This document shows positions 5,358 through 36,886 of a stretch of 36,886 nt of DNA, piece by piece. The stretch is taken from assembly GCA_028281425.1 (NCBI GenBank), contig JANQJX010000244.1, forward strand, positions 1 through 36,886, written 5' to 3'. The number at the start of each line of letters is the position of its first letter. The stretch's first letter is position 1. The stretch is from Simkania sp. (GTDB lineage: Bacteria > Chlamydiota > Chlamydiia > Chlamydiales > Simkaniaceae). The position numbers were made by a program, and so were the translations under genes. The notes beneath the pieces are model-generated. The model was not told where the DNA came from, made no database searches, and worked only from the letters and a program-made list of their open reading frames with translations.

Positions 5358-5700
5358 ACCCCTATCTCTCATTCCCCCTATGGAAAAAGAGTTGCACAAC
5401 TGTTTTCAGAAACGCCAAGAAATTCTCGAATGGATAAGTTTGCAACCTAACCTAAAGGGCCTGCCTTGAAATGGAAAGTCATTGTCTAAAGGATCTTTTC
5501 TCCTTAGGCCTTAAGATAAGTCGCATCTCCTTTTGCTCTCAAGAGTCTAATGCATTTGCACCTTTCACAATTTTCGAAAAAAATCTCAAGGGATCCGAAC
5601 AATTTTTCAGTTCAAGGCAGGCTCCTAAAAGAATTTATCGGATGTGTGAGCGAAACAGAGCATGTGGATTTTTCAGAAAGGGAAAGCGAAATGCGAGCTA
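5355..5700 (+). mobile_element. MITE family A copy interrupted by a nested family-B MITE
   Basis: A-left runs 5355-5456 (...GCCAAGAAATTCTCGAATGGATAAGTTTGCAACCTAACCTAAA). A-right runs 5625-5700 (CTAAAAGAATTTATCGGATGTGTGAGCGAAACAGAGCATGTGGATTTTTC...GCGAAATGCGAGCTA). Removing B and one CTAAA leaves 173 bp, matching uninterrupted copies. Confidence 0.8.
5457..5624 (+). mobile_element. MITE family B copy (168 bp) nested in family A
   Basis: Termini are GGGCCTGCCTTGAA...TTCAAGGCAGGCTC, flanked by the direct repeat CTAAA (5452-5456 and 5625-5629). Collinear with the B copies at 15908, 20643 and 23162. Confidence 0.8.
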
Positions 5701-12581: not shown

Positions 12582-12754
12582 TAGCCCTTATTTTACGCCA
12601 CCTCTTTCGAAAAGGCACACACGATTGTTTTTTGAGGCCTAAGAAATTTTCGAATGGATAAGGGTGCAGCTTCACCTAAAAGAATTTATTAGATGTACCA
12701 GCGAAAAAAAGCATGTGGATTTTTCTAAAGTGGGCACGAGAAATGGGGGCCATA
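12582..12754 (+). mobile_element. MITE family A, full copy (173 bp)
   Basis: TAGCCCTTATTTTACGCCACCTCTTTCGAAAAGGCA...CTAAGAAATTTTCGAATGGATAAGGGTGCAGCTTCACCTAAAAGAATTTATTAG...GCATGTGGATTTTTCTAAAGTGGGCACGAGAAATGGGGGCCATA. It lies in the divergent trhO/rpsD spacer. Confidence 0.8.
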
Positions 12755-15804: not shown

Positions 15805-16141
15805 CTCACATTTCTCACCAACTCTTTCGAAAAGGCATGCACGAATATTTTTTGAGACGCCAATAAATCTTCAAAGGAAAGGTTGCAACCTTTCCGAGAT
15901 AATTTATGGGCCTGCCTTGAACTGGAAAGTCATCGTCTAAAGGATCTGTTCTCCTTAGGCTTGACATCAGTCGCATCTCCTTTTGCTCTCAAGGGTATAG
16001 TGAATTTGCACCTTTCACAATTTTCGAAAAAAATCTCAATGAATCGGAACAATTTTTCAGTTCAAGGCAGGCCCTTTATTGAGTGTCTGGAAAAACAGGA
16101 GATACGGATTTTTCTAAAGTGGGCACGCGAAATGTGGGTTA
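15802..16141 (+). mobile_element. MITE family A copy interrupted by a nested family-B MITE
   Basis: TAACTCACATTTCTCACCAACTCTTTCGAAAAGGCATGC...GGTTGCAACCTTTCCGAGATAATTTAT[B]TTTATTGAGTG...GGATTTTTCTAAAGTGGGCACGCGAAATGTGGGTTA. TTAA lies at both flanks. The element fills essentially the whole spacer between the convergent stops of asnS and the 16147 ORF. Confidence 0.85.
15908..16074 (+). mobile_element. MITE family B, reference copy (167 bp)
   Basis: Perfect 17-bp TIR GGGCCTGCCTTGAACTG / CAGTTCAAGGCAGGCCC. A perfect 5-bp direct repeat TTTAT flanks it (15903-15907 and 16075-16079). Confidence 0.9.
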
Positions 16142-18644: not shown

Positions 18645-19692
18645 TCAGAGGTTTAAAGAACCTTTTCTAGAAAGCCATTGGATGACAAGATCACGTGTTG
18701 CATGAGCACAAGCAACAAAAATATGCCCTTTATCAAAAATAGAGCGCAAAACCTCTTCCTTCAGGCGGAAGATCTAGAGCTCTCAGGCGCCTTTTTGCTG
18801 CTGCTTAATGGACTCCACGCAAAGTAGCGATGCATGCTTAACTCTCCAAAGTGCTGTTAAAGCACTAGGGAATCCTCTTCGTTTAGGGAGAGGAGGATGT
18901 CAATGGGAATCATAGCCATTTGTTCTTCTTTGTCACTGATGAGAACAGATTCACGAGGGATAAGCCAATCGTTTTCCGCAACAATCGTATAGAGTTGAAC
19001 GAGATCGCGATTTTTTTTGATACGTTCATAAATAAGCTCAATTCTCTTTAAAGTTTCATAGCAATAAGGGTAAAAAGGAGTTTCTATAGGCTTATCAATA
19101 TTTTTAAGACGTCCCGCAATGGAAATGACCTTGTCAACCGTCCTATTTTCAATCCATTTCTCTTGATCAAACGCATCATCAGCAGCAATAATAGTTCCAA
19201 GAGAGTGCCCTACGAGATTTAAGTAGGAGAGTTTCTGCTCCTGCTTCAAGATACATCTCTCGAATAGACCTAATTCTTTTGATAAGCGCTGTGACGCCCT
19301 CTCCTTCTTGGAAGTTGAAAGTGAAAACAGGGCCACAAAGGTCACCAAAATTTTCATCTTCCATAGAGTGAAGGAGAGGAAGCCATTCACCCTGGTTAGA
19401 TTGACTGGAATGAATAAGAATTGGTAGCAGGACATTTGGATTGGCATTTAGACACCCAAGATGGATTGCATCCGTAATAAAAAAAATCCTTTTTAGGTCC
19501 CCATAGATAGCGATCCCATAAAAACTGACTGAGCACATTTATCGAGAGAGCATCAATCTCTTCTTTTCCTCGTTCAAAAACACTGTTAGAACTTTCCTGT
19601 ATCTCCATACAAGAAGGTTGCGGAAAACGTTCCTTAGAAAAAAGAATAAGGGGGAGAAGAAATAGAAGAAAAAAAACACTTATGCATTTCAT
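18645..19692 (-). pseudogene. Secreted alpha/beta-hydrolase (lipase/esterase-like) pseudogene: at least 2 frameshifts plus a 167-bp element insertion
   Basis: Three overlapping track ORFs in three frames (19396-19692, 19179-19538, 18857-19447) jointly encode a signal peptide (MKCISVFFLLFLLPLILFS), PILIHSSQSNQGEW, nucleophile elbow LVGHSLGT and an acid-residue region AENDWLIP. A fourth piece (18645-18734) encodes DKGHIFVACAHATRDLVIQWLSRKGSLNL*, which carries the expected GH. Confidence 0.7.
18735..18901 (+). mobile_element. Miniature IS200/IS605-like element (PATE-like, 167 bp) inserted in the hydrolase gene
   Basis: The first ~57 nt are near-identical to 36682-36738. It is inserted 3' of TTATC with no target duplication. 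Subterminal hairpins lie at 18754-18772 (TCTTCC/GGAAGA) and 18873-18894 (TCCTCT/AGAGGA), plus AGTGCT-GTTAA-AGCACT at 18850-18866. In-silico excision joins ...ATGGCTATGATTCCCATT|GATAAAGGGCAT... in frame. Boundaries are ambiguous by 2 nt. Confidence 0.55.
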
Positions 19693-19787
19693 AAGCGAAG
19701 ACTTTAACTTAATCTAAAATAAATCCCCTTTCATGAAGACAACAAATCTATATTAATTCATACTATTTCAAAAAATTCATACACCGC

Positions 19788-20655
19788 ATGAGGTTCATGA
19801 TGTTTCGAATGATTTCTATGACCCTTCTTTTTCTCAATCCTTTCCTTTTTTCCAGTGACTCTCTAGTCAAGCAGCTCAAAGTGCGCCAATATGCCATTGT
19901 TCCTATTGAAACAAAGACAGAATGGTTTGATGAAGCTATTCAAGCATACGACAGCTTCTTAAAGCTCCCTGAAGAAGTGAAAAAAAAATATATGGCACAG
20001 TTTTTCCTTTGCACTCCCGCTCTAATTGCGGATATCGATTAGAAACTCACAATCACGGGAAAAACCTTAGAATGTACTTTCTATATCACCCCAAGCTCGA
20101 GTCTCAATGTCAATCATTTATAAAAGAAAACGCATCGATACGTTCTCTTTTCGAAAAAACCAAACCTCTATGGCAAACTTCAAATAGCTGTTTTAAAAAA
20201 GTCATTCATGAACTTAGCGCCTCTTTTCCTCCAAATGCCTATGATTCTATCTTTGCAAAAGATTCACATCAAGTACGCCTTGTTCTTGCTTTGATTAAGT
20301 ATTCCGATAAAGAAGAAAGAAAGCGATCAATAAGCCATTTTGACGGCGGATGTGCTAGCCTTGCGCTATTAGAAAGTGCTCCTGGCCTTCGAATTGGAAG
20401 CTGCGAAAAAACTCTATCTGATGCTGCTCATTGTAGAGGAACTGCTATTTTTTTCTCGGGAAAAACTTTAAGTCAATCGTTGGAGAAAGAAGTGGGATTC
20501 TTCCTGGTTGGCATGATGTCAGGCCTGGCTTAGGAAATAGATTTGCAATTATCGCCTTTCTCGATACACTCCATTCTAAAGGCGTCACAGAGGAAGAAAC
20601 TCATGAAAATCCCCTCAATATGGAACTTCGAAGTCCAATAAAGGGCCTGCCTTGA
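19788..20655 (+). pseudogene. 2-oxoglutarate/Fe(II)-dependent oxygenase-like pseudogene (2 frameshifts; 3' end runs into a family-B MITE)
   Basis: Frame 1 (19788-20042) encodes ...WFDEAIQAYDSFLKLPEEVKKKY. Frame 2 (20009-20533) encodes ...ISHFDGGCASLALLESAPGLRIG...AIFFSGKTLS, containing an HxD motif. Frame 3 (about 20495-20655) encodes GILPGWHDVRPGLGNRFAIIAFL, containing the distal His and an RxA/S motif. The terminal TGA (20653-20655) lies inside the B TIR. Confidence 0.55.
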
Positions 20656-20809
20656 ATTGAAAAATTGTTCCGATCCATTGAGATTTTTTTCGAAAATTGT
20701 GAAAGGTGCAAATTCACTATACCCTTGAGAGCAAAAGGAGATGCGACTGATATCAAGCCTAAGGAGAAAAGATCCTTTAGACGATGACTTTCCAGTTCAA
20801 GGCAGGCCC
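20643..20809 (-). mobile_element. MITE family B copy (167 bp), inverted relative to the 15908 copy
   Basis: GGGCCTGCCTTGAATTGAAAAATTGTTCCGATCCATTGAG...GACTTTCCAGTTCAAGGCAGGCCC. There is no flanking direct repeat (left ATAAA, right ATTTG). Confidence 0.85.
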
Positions 20810-20900
20810 ATTTGCAACCTCACCTAAAAGAATTTATTGGATGTCCCAATGAAACAGCGCCTGTGGATTTTTCTAGATTGGGCATGCGAAATGCGGGTTA
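20810..20900 (+). mobile_element. MITE family A, right half only
   Basis: ATTTGCAACCTCACCTAAAAGAATTTATTGGATGTCCCAATGAAACAGCGCCTGTGGATTTTTCTAGATTGGGCATGCGAAATGCGGGTTA. The left half is missing and the sequence abuts the B copy directly. Confidence 0.75.
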
Positions 20901-21808: not shown

Positions 21809-22117
21809 TAGAGGAGACTCTCTCTGAATGCCACCTATGTTGAAAAGGACTTCCTTAAACTGAAAAATTGTTCCGATCCATTGAGATTTTTTTCGAAAAT
21901 TGTGAAATGTAGGGCTTTCTCAAACCTAAAGAGAAAAGATCCTTTAGATGAGGATTCTCCAGTTCAAGACAATTCCTGAAAGGCATGCTTGAGTGTTTTT
22001 TGAGGCCTAAGAAATTTTCGAAGGAAAGGTGGTAAACTTGGGCTAAAAGAATTTATTGGGGGTGCCAGCGAAACAGAACATGCGGATTTTTCATAGGGGC
22101 AGGCGACATGCGGGTTA
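21809..22117 (+). mobile_element. MITE family A copy (degenerate left end) carrying a degenerate nested family-B copy
   Basis: ...CTGAATGCCACCTATGTTGAAAA[B]CTGAAAGGCATGCTTGAGTGTTTTTTGAGGCCTAAGAAATTTTCGAAGGAAAGGTGGTAAACTTGGGCTAAAAGAATTTATTGGG...GCGGATTTTTCATAGGGGCAGGCGACATGCGGGTTA. The last 3 nt (22115-22117) are the rluD stop codon on the reverse strand. The left boundary is approximate. Confidence 0.65.
21847..21975 (-). mobile_element. MITE family B, degenerate copy with internal deletion (about 129 bp)
   Basis: GGACTTCCTTAAACTGAAAAATTGTTCCGATCCATTGAGATTTTTTTCGAAAATTGTGAAA...CCTAAAGAGAAAAGATCCTTTAGATGAGGATTCTCCAGTTCAAGACAATTC. The TIRs are mutated and about 40 bp of core are replaced. Confidence 0.6.
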
Positions 22118-23056: not shown

Positions 23057-23161
23057 GTTCCAAAAATAGGTGACTATTTTTTAAAATCATATCCATGATA
23101 CCAAAAACCCACAAATTCTTGCTCACCTTTTCACTTCAACTGAAATTCTATCTTATTGAAA

Positions 23162-23329
23162 GGGCCTGCTTTGAACTGGAAAGTCCTCGTCTAAAGGATC
23201 TTTTCCCCTTAGGGTTGACATCCAGTCGCATCTCCTTTTGCTCCCAAGGGTATAGTGAATTTGCACCTTTCACAATTTTCGAAAAAAATCTCAATAGATC
23301 CAAACAATTTTTTAATTCAAAGCAGGTTC
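23162..23329 (+). mobile_element. MITE family B copy (168 bp)
   Basis: GGGCCTGCTTTGAACTGGAAAGTC...CAATTTTTTAATTCAAAGCAGGTTC, flanked by the direct repeat TGAAA (23157-23161 and 23330-23334). Confidence 0.8.
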
Positions 23330-23361
23330 TGAAATTGTCAATCAAAAAGATAGAATTTCGG

Positions 23362-23492
23362 CTTCAAATGCCCCTTCTTTCGAAAAGCCAAGAAATTCCC
23401 GAATGGATAAGTTTGCAACCTTATTCTAAAAGAATTTATTGGATGTATCGGAAGTCAAGGAGCATATGGATTTTTAATGAGTGATATCGGGA
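23362..23492 (+). mobile_element. MITE family A, partial/rearranged copy
   Basis: ...ATGCCCCTTCTTTCGAAAAGCCAAGAAATTCCCGAATGGATAAGTTTGCAACCTTATTCTAAAAGAATTTATTGGATGTATCGG...GCATATGGATTTTTAATGAGTGATATCGGGAT. A second A-left-TIR-like stretch (ACCCACAAATTCTTGCTCACC) sits at about 23107-23127. Boundaries are approximate. Confidence 0.55.
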
Positions 23493-27264: not shown

Positions 27265-27438
27265 TGACCCCTGTTTCACATGTCTGCTCTTTCGAAAAAA
27301 GACACAGACTGTTTTCGGAAATGCCAAGAAATTTTCTTAGGCAGAAGTTTATGACCTTATCCTCGAGAATGTATTGGATGCATCTGGAAATAGAGCCTGT
27401 GGATTTTTCTAGAATAGGCACGCAAACTACGGGGTAAG
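27265..27438 (+). mobile_element. MITE family A, diverged full-length copy (174 bp)
   Basis: TATGACCCCTGTTTCACATGTCTGCTCTTTCGAAAAAAGACA...GCCAAGAAATTTTCTTAGGCAGAAGTTTATGACCTTATCCTCGAGAATGTATTGGATG...CTGTGGATTTTTCTAGAATAGGCACGCAAACTACGGGGTA. Confidence 0.7.
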
Positions 27439-34661: not shown

Positions 34662-34830
34662 TAGCCTGCATTTTACGCCACCTCTGGAAAAAGAGCTGCA
34701 CGAATGTTTTCAGAAACGCCAAGAAATTCTCAAATGGATAAACTTGCAACCTCACCTAAAAGAATTTATTGGATGTGCAAGCGAAACAGAGCATGCAGAT
34801 TTTTTCAGGGGTAGCGTAAAATACGGGTTA
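34662..34830 (+). mobile_element. MITE family A, best-preserved copy (169 bp)
   Basis: TIR alignment: TAGCCTGCATTTTACGCCACCTCTGG against the reverse complement of the right end, TAACCCGTATTTTACGCTACCCCTGA, gives 20/26 identical. The core is collinear with other copies. Confidence 0.85.
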
Positions 34831-36651: not shown

Positions 36652-36681
36652 AAATTTTTTCGTATTTTTTCTATTTTTATC

Positions 36682-36886
36682 AAAAATAGAGCGCAAAACC
36701 TCTTCCTTCAGGTGGAGGATATAGAGCTCTCAGGCGCCTCCTTGAGCTTAATTTTTGGCTGAGTCTATGGAAAAAATCGGAAGAATACAGCTTTTTAAAT
36801 GAGCTTCCCTCCCAAACTCTTCAGCAAAAGTTAAAAGACTTAAGAAGAAAGCTTTTAAAGACGCTTTTGACAAAAAACAGCCCTTA
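36682..36886 (+). mobile_element. Left end of an IS200/IS605-family-like element with a TnpB-like reading frame (partial, runs off window)
   Basis: 36682-36738 is near-identical to 18735-18791, and both follow TTATC. The frame open from 36690 reads ...ELNFWLSLWKKSEEYSFLNELPSQTLQQKLKDLRRKLLKTLLTKNSP. This resembles the conserved [W/F]LxExxSQxLQQxL[K/R]DL segment near the N-terminus of IS605 OrfB/TnpB (from recall). No in-frame start codon is present and the usual first ~50 aa are missing. Confidence 0.4.

What the first reader, a model, noticed from the sequence alone, without database searches (positions are those of the whole stretch)
18645..18919. 167-bp IS200/IS605-like miniature element precisely splits a lipase-like gene; excision restores the frame and the catalytic GH
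On the + strand the sequence reads ...ATGCCCTTTATC | AAAAATAGAGCGC...(167 nt)...GAGGAGGATGTC | AATGGGAATCATAGCCAT...

Deleting 18735-18901 gives, on the reverse strand, ATG GCT ATG ATT CCC ATT GAT AAA GGG CAT ATT TTT... This encodes ...EEQMAMIPIDKGHIFVACAHATRDLVIQWLSRKGSLNL*. It joins the third hydrolase fragment in frame to a C-terminal piece carrying a Gly-His. That His sits about 30 aa after the AENDWLIP acid-residue region, which is the spacing expected for an alpha/beta-hydrolase triad.

Four features fit a single-strand (Y1/HUH) transposition mechanism and a PATE-type derivative:
- There is no target duplication.
- The insertion lies 3' of the pentanucleotide TTATC.
- Similar pyrimidine-rich subterminal hairpins occur near both ends.
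- The element shares its left end with the element at 36682.
Basis: partly seen in the sequence, partly recalled or inferred. Interest (0 to 1): 0.65.

Follow-up and report, generated by a model that had tools for sequence, protein, structure and literature searches.

The report
Miniature IS605-type transposon remnant in pseudogene
A 170-bp gene-less remnant of an IS200/IS605-type insertion sequence, with both transposon ends but no genes, sits inside an already broken hydrolase gene; it is an ordinary example of a known kind of mobile-element debris, and its exact borders differ slightly from those first proposed.

Summary
The insertion is real and the IS200/IS605 reading is right, but the borders and target motif need correcting.

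- **Ends.** Full-length relatives (divergent tnpA and tnpB) in 160 fetched loci carry the same ends. Multi-copy genomes show flank|TTTAT-C…LE and RE…GGAGGATGTCAA|flank.
- **Corrected element.** It is 18734-18903 (170 bp), inserted 3' of TTTAT. It is not 18735-18901 (167 bp) inserted after TTATC.
- **Excision test.** Removing 170 bp gives ...MAMIPNKGHIF..., identical in length to intact orthologues (IPNKGH). The same rule restores a RelE/ParE gene, an ankyrin gene and a phosphofructokinase stop codon at relatives' insertion sites.
- **IS608-like geometry.** GAAT guide, hairpin, then TCAA cleavage site 10 nt downstream at the RE. AAAA guide with TTAT at the LE. Both hairpins covary, and there are no terminal inverted repeats and no target duplication.
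- **Content.** The element keeps the last 9 codons of tnpA and about 93 nt of the RE.
- **Copy at 36681.** It consists of the LE plus a 5'-truncated, frameshifted tnpB.
- **Host gene.** The hydrolase has two further frameshifts, so excision would not revive it.

Whether the element moved as a miniature (PATE) or was trimmed in place is unresolved. New member of a known kind; low interest.

The parts
18729..18733 (+). Target / transposon-adjacent motif TTTAT. It is flank sequence, not part of the element.
   Evidence: TTTAT precedes the LE in both window copies and in relatives. Upstream flanks diverge among copies within one genome. Restoration of interrupted reading frames requires cleavage after TTTAT.
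18734..18903 (+). 170-bp non-autonomous IS605-group derivative (LE + tnpA tail + RE).
   Evidence: The borders come from multi-copy relatives. Excision of this span gives IPNKGH, the same as orthologue P0001.
18748..18771 (+). LE guide tetranucleotide AAAA (18748-51) and the LE subterminal imperfect hairpin (18752-71).
   Evidence: Covariation was counted on alignment A4: 92% of cells paired, 4 of 8 pairs with compensatory changes, 0 of 500 shuffles as good. This copy has a C53/A70 mismatch that copy 2 lacks.
18783..18812 (-). Remnant of tnpA: the last 9 codons plus the stop codon (SIKQQQKGA*).
   Evidence: It matches the TnpA C-termini YIEQQQRPH* / YIEQQQMPH* of relatives. The distance from the LE is also the same, with the stop codon 49-66 nt in.
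18811..18903 (+). RE segment (about 93 nt), corresponding to the 3' end of tnpB and of the omega-RNA region in full-length relatives. It contains the hairpin 18851-67, the guide GAAT 18870-73, the RE hairpin 18874-93 and the cleavage motif TCAA 18900-03.
   Evidence: 18869-18903 is 94-97% identical to the RE of the Waddliaceae and Chlamydiae copies. All invariant RE columns are present. In the RE hairpin, 5 of 7 pairs show compensatory changes and 94.8% of cells are paired.
18904..18923 (+). Right flank, which is the position an omega-RNA guide would read from.
   Evidence: This is an inference from the TnpB homing model (PMC10055086). It was not tested.
18645..19692 (-). Alpha/beta-hydrolase pseudogene split by the element. 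It has additional frameshifts near 19422 and at 19222-19236.
   Evidence: tblastn with orthologues places the pieces in three frames. Intact orthologues are 284-300 aa, with GHSLG, D and GH invariant or nearly invariant.
36676..36886 (+). Second, defective copy. It consists of TTTAT (36676-80), LE from 36681, the tnpA tail, then tnpB from about residue 54 with a frameshift at 36836-36845. It runs off the window.

Best explanation
The feature is a 170-bp internally deleted, non-autonomous derivative of an IS605-group insertion sequence (IS200/IS605 family).

**Parent element.** The parent carried a divergent tnpA (Y1 HUH transposase) and tnpB.

**Insertion.** It entered the antisense strand of an alpha/beta-hydrolase gene by TnpA-type single-strand 'peel and paste' transposition, 3' of the motif TTTAT. 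It made no target duplication.

**What remains:**
- the left end, with guide AAAA and an imperfect hairpin
- the last 9 codons of tnpA
- the last 93 nt or so of the right end, with two upstream hairpins, guide GAAT, the terminal hairpin, and the cleavage motif TCAA 10 nt past it

**Mobility.** In principle both ends could still be recognised in trans by a TnpA of the same family. Excision between TTTAT| and TCAA| would rejoin the flanks exactly.

**Shown:** the identity of the ends, the borders, the absence of a duplication, the hairpins, and the remnants of tnpA and tnpB.

**Inferred:** the transposition chemistry (by analogy with IS608), and whether the deletion came before insertion (a true miniature PATE) or after it (decay in place). 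I put these two options at about even odds.
For: **Shared LE and TnpB remnant**
- The LE is shared with copy 2.
- Copy 2 continues into a TnpB remnant.

**Full-length relatives**
- 160 relatives were fetched through TnpB.
- L074 has the layout LE-tnpA(-)-tnpB(+)-RE. Its tnpA matches NF033573 (E=2.7e-44) and its tnpB matches NF040570 (E=1.8e-96).
- The window RE (18869-18903) is 94-97% identical to these elements' RE.

**Borders**
- Five Waddliaceae, eight Psychromonas and five Bacteroidetes copies fix the borders as flank|TTTAT C... and ...GTCAA|flank.

**Empty-site tests of the TTTAT| ... TCAA| rule**
- Window hydrolase: IPNKGH, 202.4 against 195.4 bits.
- L056 RelE/ParE toxin: 122.1 against 117.2 bits, with 93 residues matching 93 profile positions.
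- L062 ankyrin gene: a 292-codon ORF is restored.
- L141 phosphofructokinase: the gene ends at a TAA supplied by the target, at the length of its PDB homologue.

**Structure of the ends**
- Hairpin covariation is seen at both ends.
- The LE and RE modules are direct repeats, and there are no terminal inverted repeats.
- GR GAAT and CR TCAA are identical to IS608. The geometry is also similar, with the cleavage site 10 nt 3' of the RE hairpin (PMC5934647, PMC3201880).
- TTTAT is a known TnpB TAM (PMC10055086).

**tnpA tail**
- The minus strand of the element reads SIKQQQKGA*.
Against: - No tnpA or intact tnpB of this family is present in the window. None was found for this genome, so a source of transposase is not shown.
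- Only one miniature copy is seen.
- The LE hairpin of this copy has a mismatch absent from copy 2, so it may no longer be a substrate.
- Both copies have their top strand on the C-rich strand. This is the opposite of the simple lagging-strand-template expectation, although two copies prove nothing.
- Pfam could not separate the 170-bp rule from a one-codon-longer variant at L062.
Confidence: 0.85

Rival explanations
1. One reading: a 167-bp PATE (18735-18901) that transposed as a miniature element into TTATC, whose excision would restore the gene.
For: - Deleting 167 nt is in frame.
- TTATC is literally present at both copies.
- PATEs derived from IS200/IS605 are known (PMC3119063, PMC10055086).
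Against: - The RE of all relatives ends ...GTCAA|, two bases beyond 18901.
- The bases after TTTATC vary between families (CT, GA, CC...), so the flank cannot include them.
- The 167-nt deletion leaves one residue more than every orthologue and scores 7 bits lower.
- Two other frameshifts remain in the gene.
- No second miniature copy is seen.
Confidence: 0.1
2. Decay in place: a full-length or larger defective IS605-type element inserted into the hydrolase gene and was later reduced to 170 bp by an internal deletion. On this reading the miniature itself never moved.
For: - The element is a simple LE + tnpA-tail / RE join.
- The neighbouring copy is also a deletion derivative.
- The host gene and the LE hairpin are decaying.
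- There is only one RE and one junction in the window.
Against: - Nothing is decisive.
- The Logan contig L003 stops 48 nt inside the RE, at 18856. This suggests the RE is repeated elsewhere in the genome, but does not say in what form.
Confidence: 0.45
3. A MITE of a DDE transposon that duplicated a 4-bp target, TCAA.
For: TCAA is present at both junctions.
Against: - There are no terminal inverted repeats. The end modules are direct repeats.
- TCAA at the right is part of a 12-mer that is invariant in relatives from several phyla.
- CAA at the left is LE sequence, and it differs in other families.
- Flanks of five or more copies per genome show no duplication.
Confidence: 0.02

Closest known systems
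IS608 (Helicobacter pylori), the IS200/IS605 paradigm
   Same: - Y1 HUH TnpA plus TnpB in the full-length relatives.
- Subterminal hairpins on one strand.
- Right guide GAAT and right cleavage site TCAA are identical.
- The cleavage site lies 10 nt 3' of the RE hairpin.
- The left site lies about 18-19 nt 5' of the LE hairpin.
- No target duplication and no terminal inverted repeats.
   Different: - The target is TTTAT (CL TTAT with GL AAAA), not TTAC (with GL AAAG).
- In the relatives tnpA and tnpB are divergent (as in IS605), not co-oriented.
- The window element has lost both genes.
ISGst2 / GstTnpB2 of Geobacillus stearothermophilus (Meers et al., PMC10055086)
   Same: - TTTAT as the transposon-adjacent motif.
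- A genome holding many tnpA-less copies and PATE-like minimal elements that are mobilised in trans.
   Different: Sequence relatedness to ISGst2 was not tested here. No function was tested here.
PATEs (palindrome-associated transposable elements; Haloquadratum, PMC3119063)
   Same: Short, gene-less elements carrying IS200/IS605-type ends.
   Different: PATEs are defined as multi-copy families. Here one copy is seen, and it still carries recognisable tnpA and tnpB-end debris.

Membership tests
IS200/IS605 family (IS605 group) | Y1 HUH transposase TnpA | tested here: met
   Met in the full-length relatives that share both ends: L074 tnpA matches NF033573 with E=2.7e-44. In the window only a 9-codon tail survives, and there is no tnpA elsewhere in the window.
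IS200/IS605 family (IS605 group) | TnpB accessory gene next to the RE | tested here: met
   The copy 2 remnant matches NF040570 with E=3e-8 and has 75 phmmer hits. Relatives carry full-length TnpB, E=1.8e-96. The miniature element itself has none.
IS200/IS605 family (IS605 group) | No terminal inverted repeats; subterminal hairpins at both ends on the same strand | tested here: met
   One search shows direct modules and no terminal inverted repeats. Covariation supports both hairpins.
IS200/IS605 family (IS605 group) | Insertion 3' of a fixed short motif without target duplication | tested here: met
   TTTAT is present at both window copies and in relatives. The flanks are otherwise unrelated. 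Four empty-site reconstructions agree.
IS200/IS605 family (IS605 group) | Cleavage sites paired with guide tetranucleotides 5' of each hairpin foot | tested here: met
   GAAT/TCAA at the RE is identical to IS608. AAAA/TTAT at the LE follows the IS608 pairing pattern. This is a sequence pattern only (PMC5934647, PMC3201880).
IS200/IS605 family (IS605 group) | Orientation bias towards the lagging-strand template | tested here: inconclusive
   There are two copies, both on the + strand. That strand has negative GC skew (-0.066).
PATE (miniature IS200/IS605 derivative) | Short, no coding capacity, LE and RE retained | tested here: met
   The element is 170 bp. No protein family is hit by its frames. 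LE and RE are identified.
PATE (miniature IS200/IS605 derivative) | Several copies with the same internal structure at different sites (evidence of mobilisation) | not testable with these tools
   - The source genome is available only as short Logan contigs.
- The LE 20-mer is absent from both contig collections.
- There is only one RE in the window.
- No miniature copies were found in the first 80 related loci (genome-collection set); the 80 metagenome loci were not scanned for them.
DDE-transposon MITE | Terminal inverted repeats and target-site duplication | tested here: not met

The most novel reading that the evidence does not exclude
The miniature keeps the last 93 nt or so of the TnpB guide-RNA (omega-RNA) region, including three hairpins, up to the exact RE end. 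It might therefore still be transcribed into a truncated omega-RNA whose guide is the adjacent hydrolase sequence. A TnpB made elsewhere in the genome could use this RNA to re-cut the empty TTTAT site, which would make it a gene-less element maintained by homing in trans. Alternatively the transcript could act as an antisense RNA to the hydrolase remnant.
Probability: 0.1. Interest if true: 0.45.

Novelty: new member of a known kind. Interest (0 to 1): 0.22.

Why it matters
**For annotation**
- It explains one of three lesions in a hydrolase pseudogene.
- It identifies two defective IS605-type copies that gene callers would miss.

**Wider use**
- A single copy could not fix the borders, because TCAA occurs at both junctions.
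- Multi-copy relatives, together with frame restoration at four interrupted genes, fixed the borders to the base.

**The clade**
- It documents an IS605 clade that targets TTTAT.
- Its RE terminus (GGAAT...GGAGGATGTCAA) is nearly invariant across Chlamydiota, Proteobacteria, Bacteroidota and an archaeal MAG.
- This may help in finding TnpB systems with a TTTAT TAM.

Nothing here changes what is known about the mechanism.

Tried and rejected
**Searches that found nothing**
- The exact LE 20-mer in genome and metagenome contigs gave no hits. The source genome and close kin are not in those collections.
- A word-indexed protein search with the 45-aa TnpB fragment found nothing. The exhaustive HMMER search did find hits.
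- Pfam on that fragment gave nothing relevant. NCBIfam did.
- Rfam has no family for the element, at either the gathering or the E-value threshold.
- Translations of the miniature's interior hit no protein family.
- A paper search for the run accession SRR20820735 found nothing.
- A scan for miniature elements in the first 80 related loci (genome-collection set) found none.

**Weak or uninformative results**
- Whole-element folding is no better than shuffles (z = -0.4 to -0.5). The signal lies in the two local hairpins only.
- The metagenome TnpB loci were no closer to the window element than the genome loci.
- Synteny around orthologue P0001 is not conserved.

**Border models rejected**
- Cleavage after TTTATC (169 bp) is out of frame in the window, L056 and L062.
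- TTTATCAA as the target fails because the two bases after TTTATC vary between families.

**False leads**
- Several long ORFs spanning junctions in the metagenome loci (L110, L159, L140, L146) turned out to be intergenic read-through next to true gene starts. They were not used.

Full report
**1. The observation**

The sequence is as quoted. The 167 nt at 18735-18901 have 48% GC in a window of 36% GC. Removing them joins two minus-strand reading frames into ...EEQMAMIPIDKGHIFVACAHATRDLVIQWLSRKGSLNL*.

The first 31 nt occur exactly twice in the window, at 18735 and 36682, with none in 100 shuffles. The shared stretch runs from 18729 to about 18797 at 93-95% identity. The right end occurs once.

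This one copy therefore cannot place the borders to better than 4 nt, and it cannot exclude a 4-bp duplication. A 167-nt and a 170-nt deletion are both in frame.

**2. The host gene**

The reconstructed protein has 18 homologues. Most are intact proteins of 284-300 aa covering 90-97% of it. Some carry weak PGAP1, DUF915 or Abhydrolase_6 Pfam labels.

- The alignment is collinear across the junction.
- GHSLG (Ser) and the Asp of NDWL are invariant, and the Gly-His is nearly invariant.
- tblastn with orthologues shows the gene lies in three frames upstream of the element. The shifts are near 19422 and between 19236 and 19222.

The gene is therefore a pseudogene with three lesions, and excision would not revive it.

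**3. What the element is**

*The copy at 36681.* It passes from the shared left end into sequence that, once one frameshift is corrected, matches TnpB.
- NCBIfam guided_TnpB gives E=3e-8 at profile positions 52-92 of 389.
- An exhaustive phmmer search gave 75 hits at 48-78% identity (one multi-stretch hit at 31%), matching residues about 57-100 of the full-length hits (363-426 aa).
- tblastn with a full-length TnpB places the frameshift at 36836-36845.
- That copy is therefore the LE plus a 5'-truncated, broken tnpB.

*Full-length relatives.* A profile of the TnpB hits fetched 80 genomic loci, and a second profile fetched 80 metagenomic loci.
- blastn of the window ends against them matched the RE (18869-18903) at 94-97% identity. 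The match lies about 40-80 nt downstream of tnpB in Waddliaceae, a Chlamydiae MAG and others.
- The LE matched either about 490 nt or about 100 nt upstream of tnpB.
- L074 (Waddliaceae) reads LE, tnpA on the minus strand, tnpB on the plus strand, RE.
- Its tnpA matches the IS200/IS605 transposase model (E=2.7e-44) and its tnpB the guided-TnpB model (E=1.8e-96).
- This is the IS605 gene arrangement.

**4. The borders**

In genomes with several copies, the shared sequence stops at ...GGAGGATGTCAA on the right and starts at TTTATC on the left. Unrelated flanks lie beyond both points. This holds for five Waddliaceae, eight Psychromonas and five Bacteroidetes copies.

The bases after TTTATC differ between families (AA, CT, GA, CC, AG), so they belong to the element. 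Two options remain: cleavage after TTTATC (169 bp in the window) or after TTTAT (170 bp).

Four interrupted genes decide for TTTAT|C...TCAA|:
- **Window hydrolase.** It becomes IPNKGH, the very hexapeptide of orthologue P0001.
- **RelE/ParE toxin in L056.** It is restored with 93 residues on 93 profile positions, at 122.1 against 117.2 bits.
- **Ankyrin gene in L062.** It becomes a 292-codon ORF. Pfam cannot separate the two in-frame variants there.
- **Phosphofructokinase in L141.** It ends at a TAA supplied by the target itself, at the length expected from its closest solved homologue.

The 169-bp rule is out of frame in the first three. The window element is therefore 18734-18903, and the target is TTTAT (18729-33). 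Copy 2 starts at 36681 after TTTAT (36676-80).

**5. Mechanism-relevant anatomy**

The two end modules are direct repeats of each other (18749-72 and 18871-94, 75% identity), and there are no terminal inverted repeats.

*Right end*
- The RE hairpin (18874-93) is paired in 94.8% of cells across 30 sequences.
- Five of its seven pairs show compensatory changes, and 0 of 500 shuffles do as well.
- GGAAT lies directly 5' of the hairpin, and the cleavage motif TCAA ends 10 nt 3' of it.
- IS608 has GR = GAAT and CR = TCAA, 10 nt 3' of its hairpin (PMC5934647, PMC3201880).

*Left end*
- The LE hairpin (18752-71) is paired in 92% of cells across 8 sequences. Four of its eight pairs are compensatory.
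- The four bases 5' of the hairpin are AAAA in all relatives examined.
- The IS608 pairing is TTAC with AAAG. With AAAA as guide, the same pattern predicts TTAT as the left cleavage site. This agrees with the empirically derived border. This step is inference from pattern.
- TTTAT is also the experimentally determined TAM of GstTnpB2 (PMC10055086).
- The LE hairpin of the miniature has one mismatch (C18753/A18770) that copy 2 lacks.

**6. What is left inside**

- On the minus strand, 18783-18812 reads SIKQQQKGA*. This matches the TnpA C-termini of relatives (YIEQQQRPH*, YIEQQQMPH*) at the same distance from the LE.
- From about 18811 the sequence aligns with the last 93 nt or so of relatives' RE. 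That stretch begins at a degenerate GGAACC motif. It continues through a hairpin around AGTAGCGAT and a second hairpin (AGTGCT/AGCACT), whose stem varies in a compensatory way by eye.
- The upstream part of that region (TTAGCCTGTGGAGAG...GAAGCA) is missing.
- In TnpB systems this region encodes the guide RNA (PMC10055086). Whether the truncated version is functional was not tested, and Rfam has no model for it.

**7. What remains open**

- **Copy number.** Only one miniature is visible.
- **Source genome.** It is available only as short Logan contigs. One of these (L003 = window 18856-20687) stops 48 nt inside the RE, and another (L001) stops 23 nt inside the LE of copy 2. This fits repeated ends elsewhere in the genome but is weak evidence.
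- **Transposase source.** No tnpA is in the window.
- **Timing of the deletion.** I cannot tell whether the element moved as a miniature or was trimmed in place.
- **Orientation.** Both copies have their top strand on the strand with negative GC skew. With two copies this says nothing firm.

**8. Verdict**

The insertion is real, and the family assignment is correct and now supported by tool evidence. The borders and the target motif are corrected. The promise that excision restores the gene does not hold, because two further frameshifts remain. This is a new member of a known kind of element and is of low general interest.

Noticed in passing
window 15906-16081 and 20636-20811, plus about 10 further sites (e.g. 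1576-1735, 5361-5698, 12585-12749, 21843-22116, 23159-23453, 27307-27429, 34665-34829): There is a dense family of 100-180-nt interspersed repeats unrelated to the IS605 ends. One 176-nt pair, 98% complementary, brackets the 4.55-kb segment holding hemA, a DUF8173 gene and the hydrolase pseudogene. The Logan contigs end inside these arms.
   Followed up: no
window 19422 and 19222-19236: There are two further frameshifts in the hydrolase gene, independent of the insertion.
   Followed up: yes
window 19788-20533: Two ORFs (84 and 174 aa) overlap in different frames. This may be another broken gene.
   Followed up: no
window 18803-18809 and 36747-36753: The heptamer GCTTAAT is the tnpA tail in the miniature and reads as tnpB codons E-L-N in copy 2. 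The internal deletions of both copies have their left breakpoint at or right after it. Possible causes are a microhomology-mediated deletion or a hot spot.
   Followed up: partly
L064 and L065, 800-2750: In two Waddliaceae copies the tnpA gene is itself split by a roughly 1.7-kb insertion. The insertion carries a 345-aa ORF that looks, by eye only (no family search run), like an IS630/Tc1-type transposase, plus a 158-aa ORF.
   Followed up: no
L141 2126/3642: The IS605 copy sits exactly on the stop codon of a phosphofructokinase gene. The target TTTAT, read on the other strand, supplies the TAA.
   Followed up: partly
alignment A3 (RE of 30 elements): GGAAT and the terminal GAGG.TGTCAA are invariant in elements from Chlamydiota, Gamma- and Deltaproteobacteria, Bacteroidota and a Woesearchaeota MAG. 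This is an unusually conserved transposon terminus.
   Followed up: partly
L017 2220-2262: A second RE-like terminus (…GGGAGGGGAGTATGTCAA) lies about 600 nt downstream of the first, with no LE found between them.
   Followed up: no
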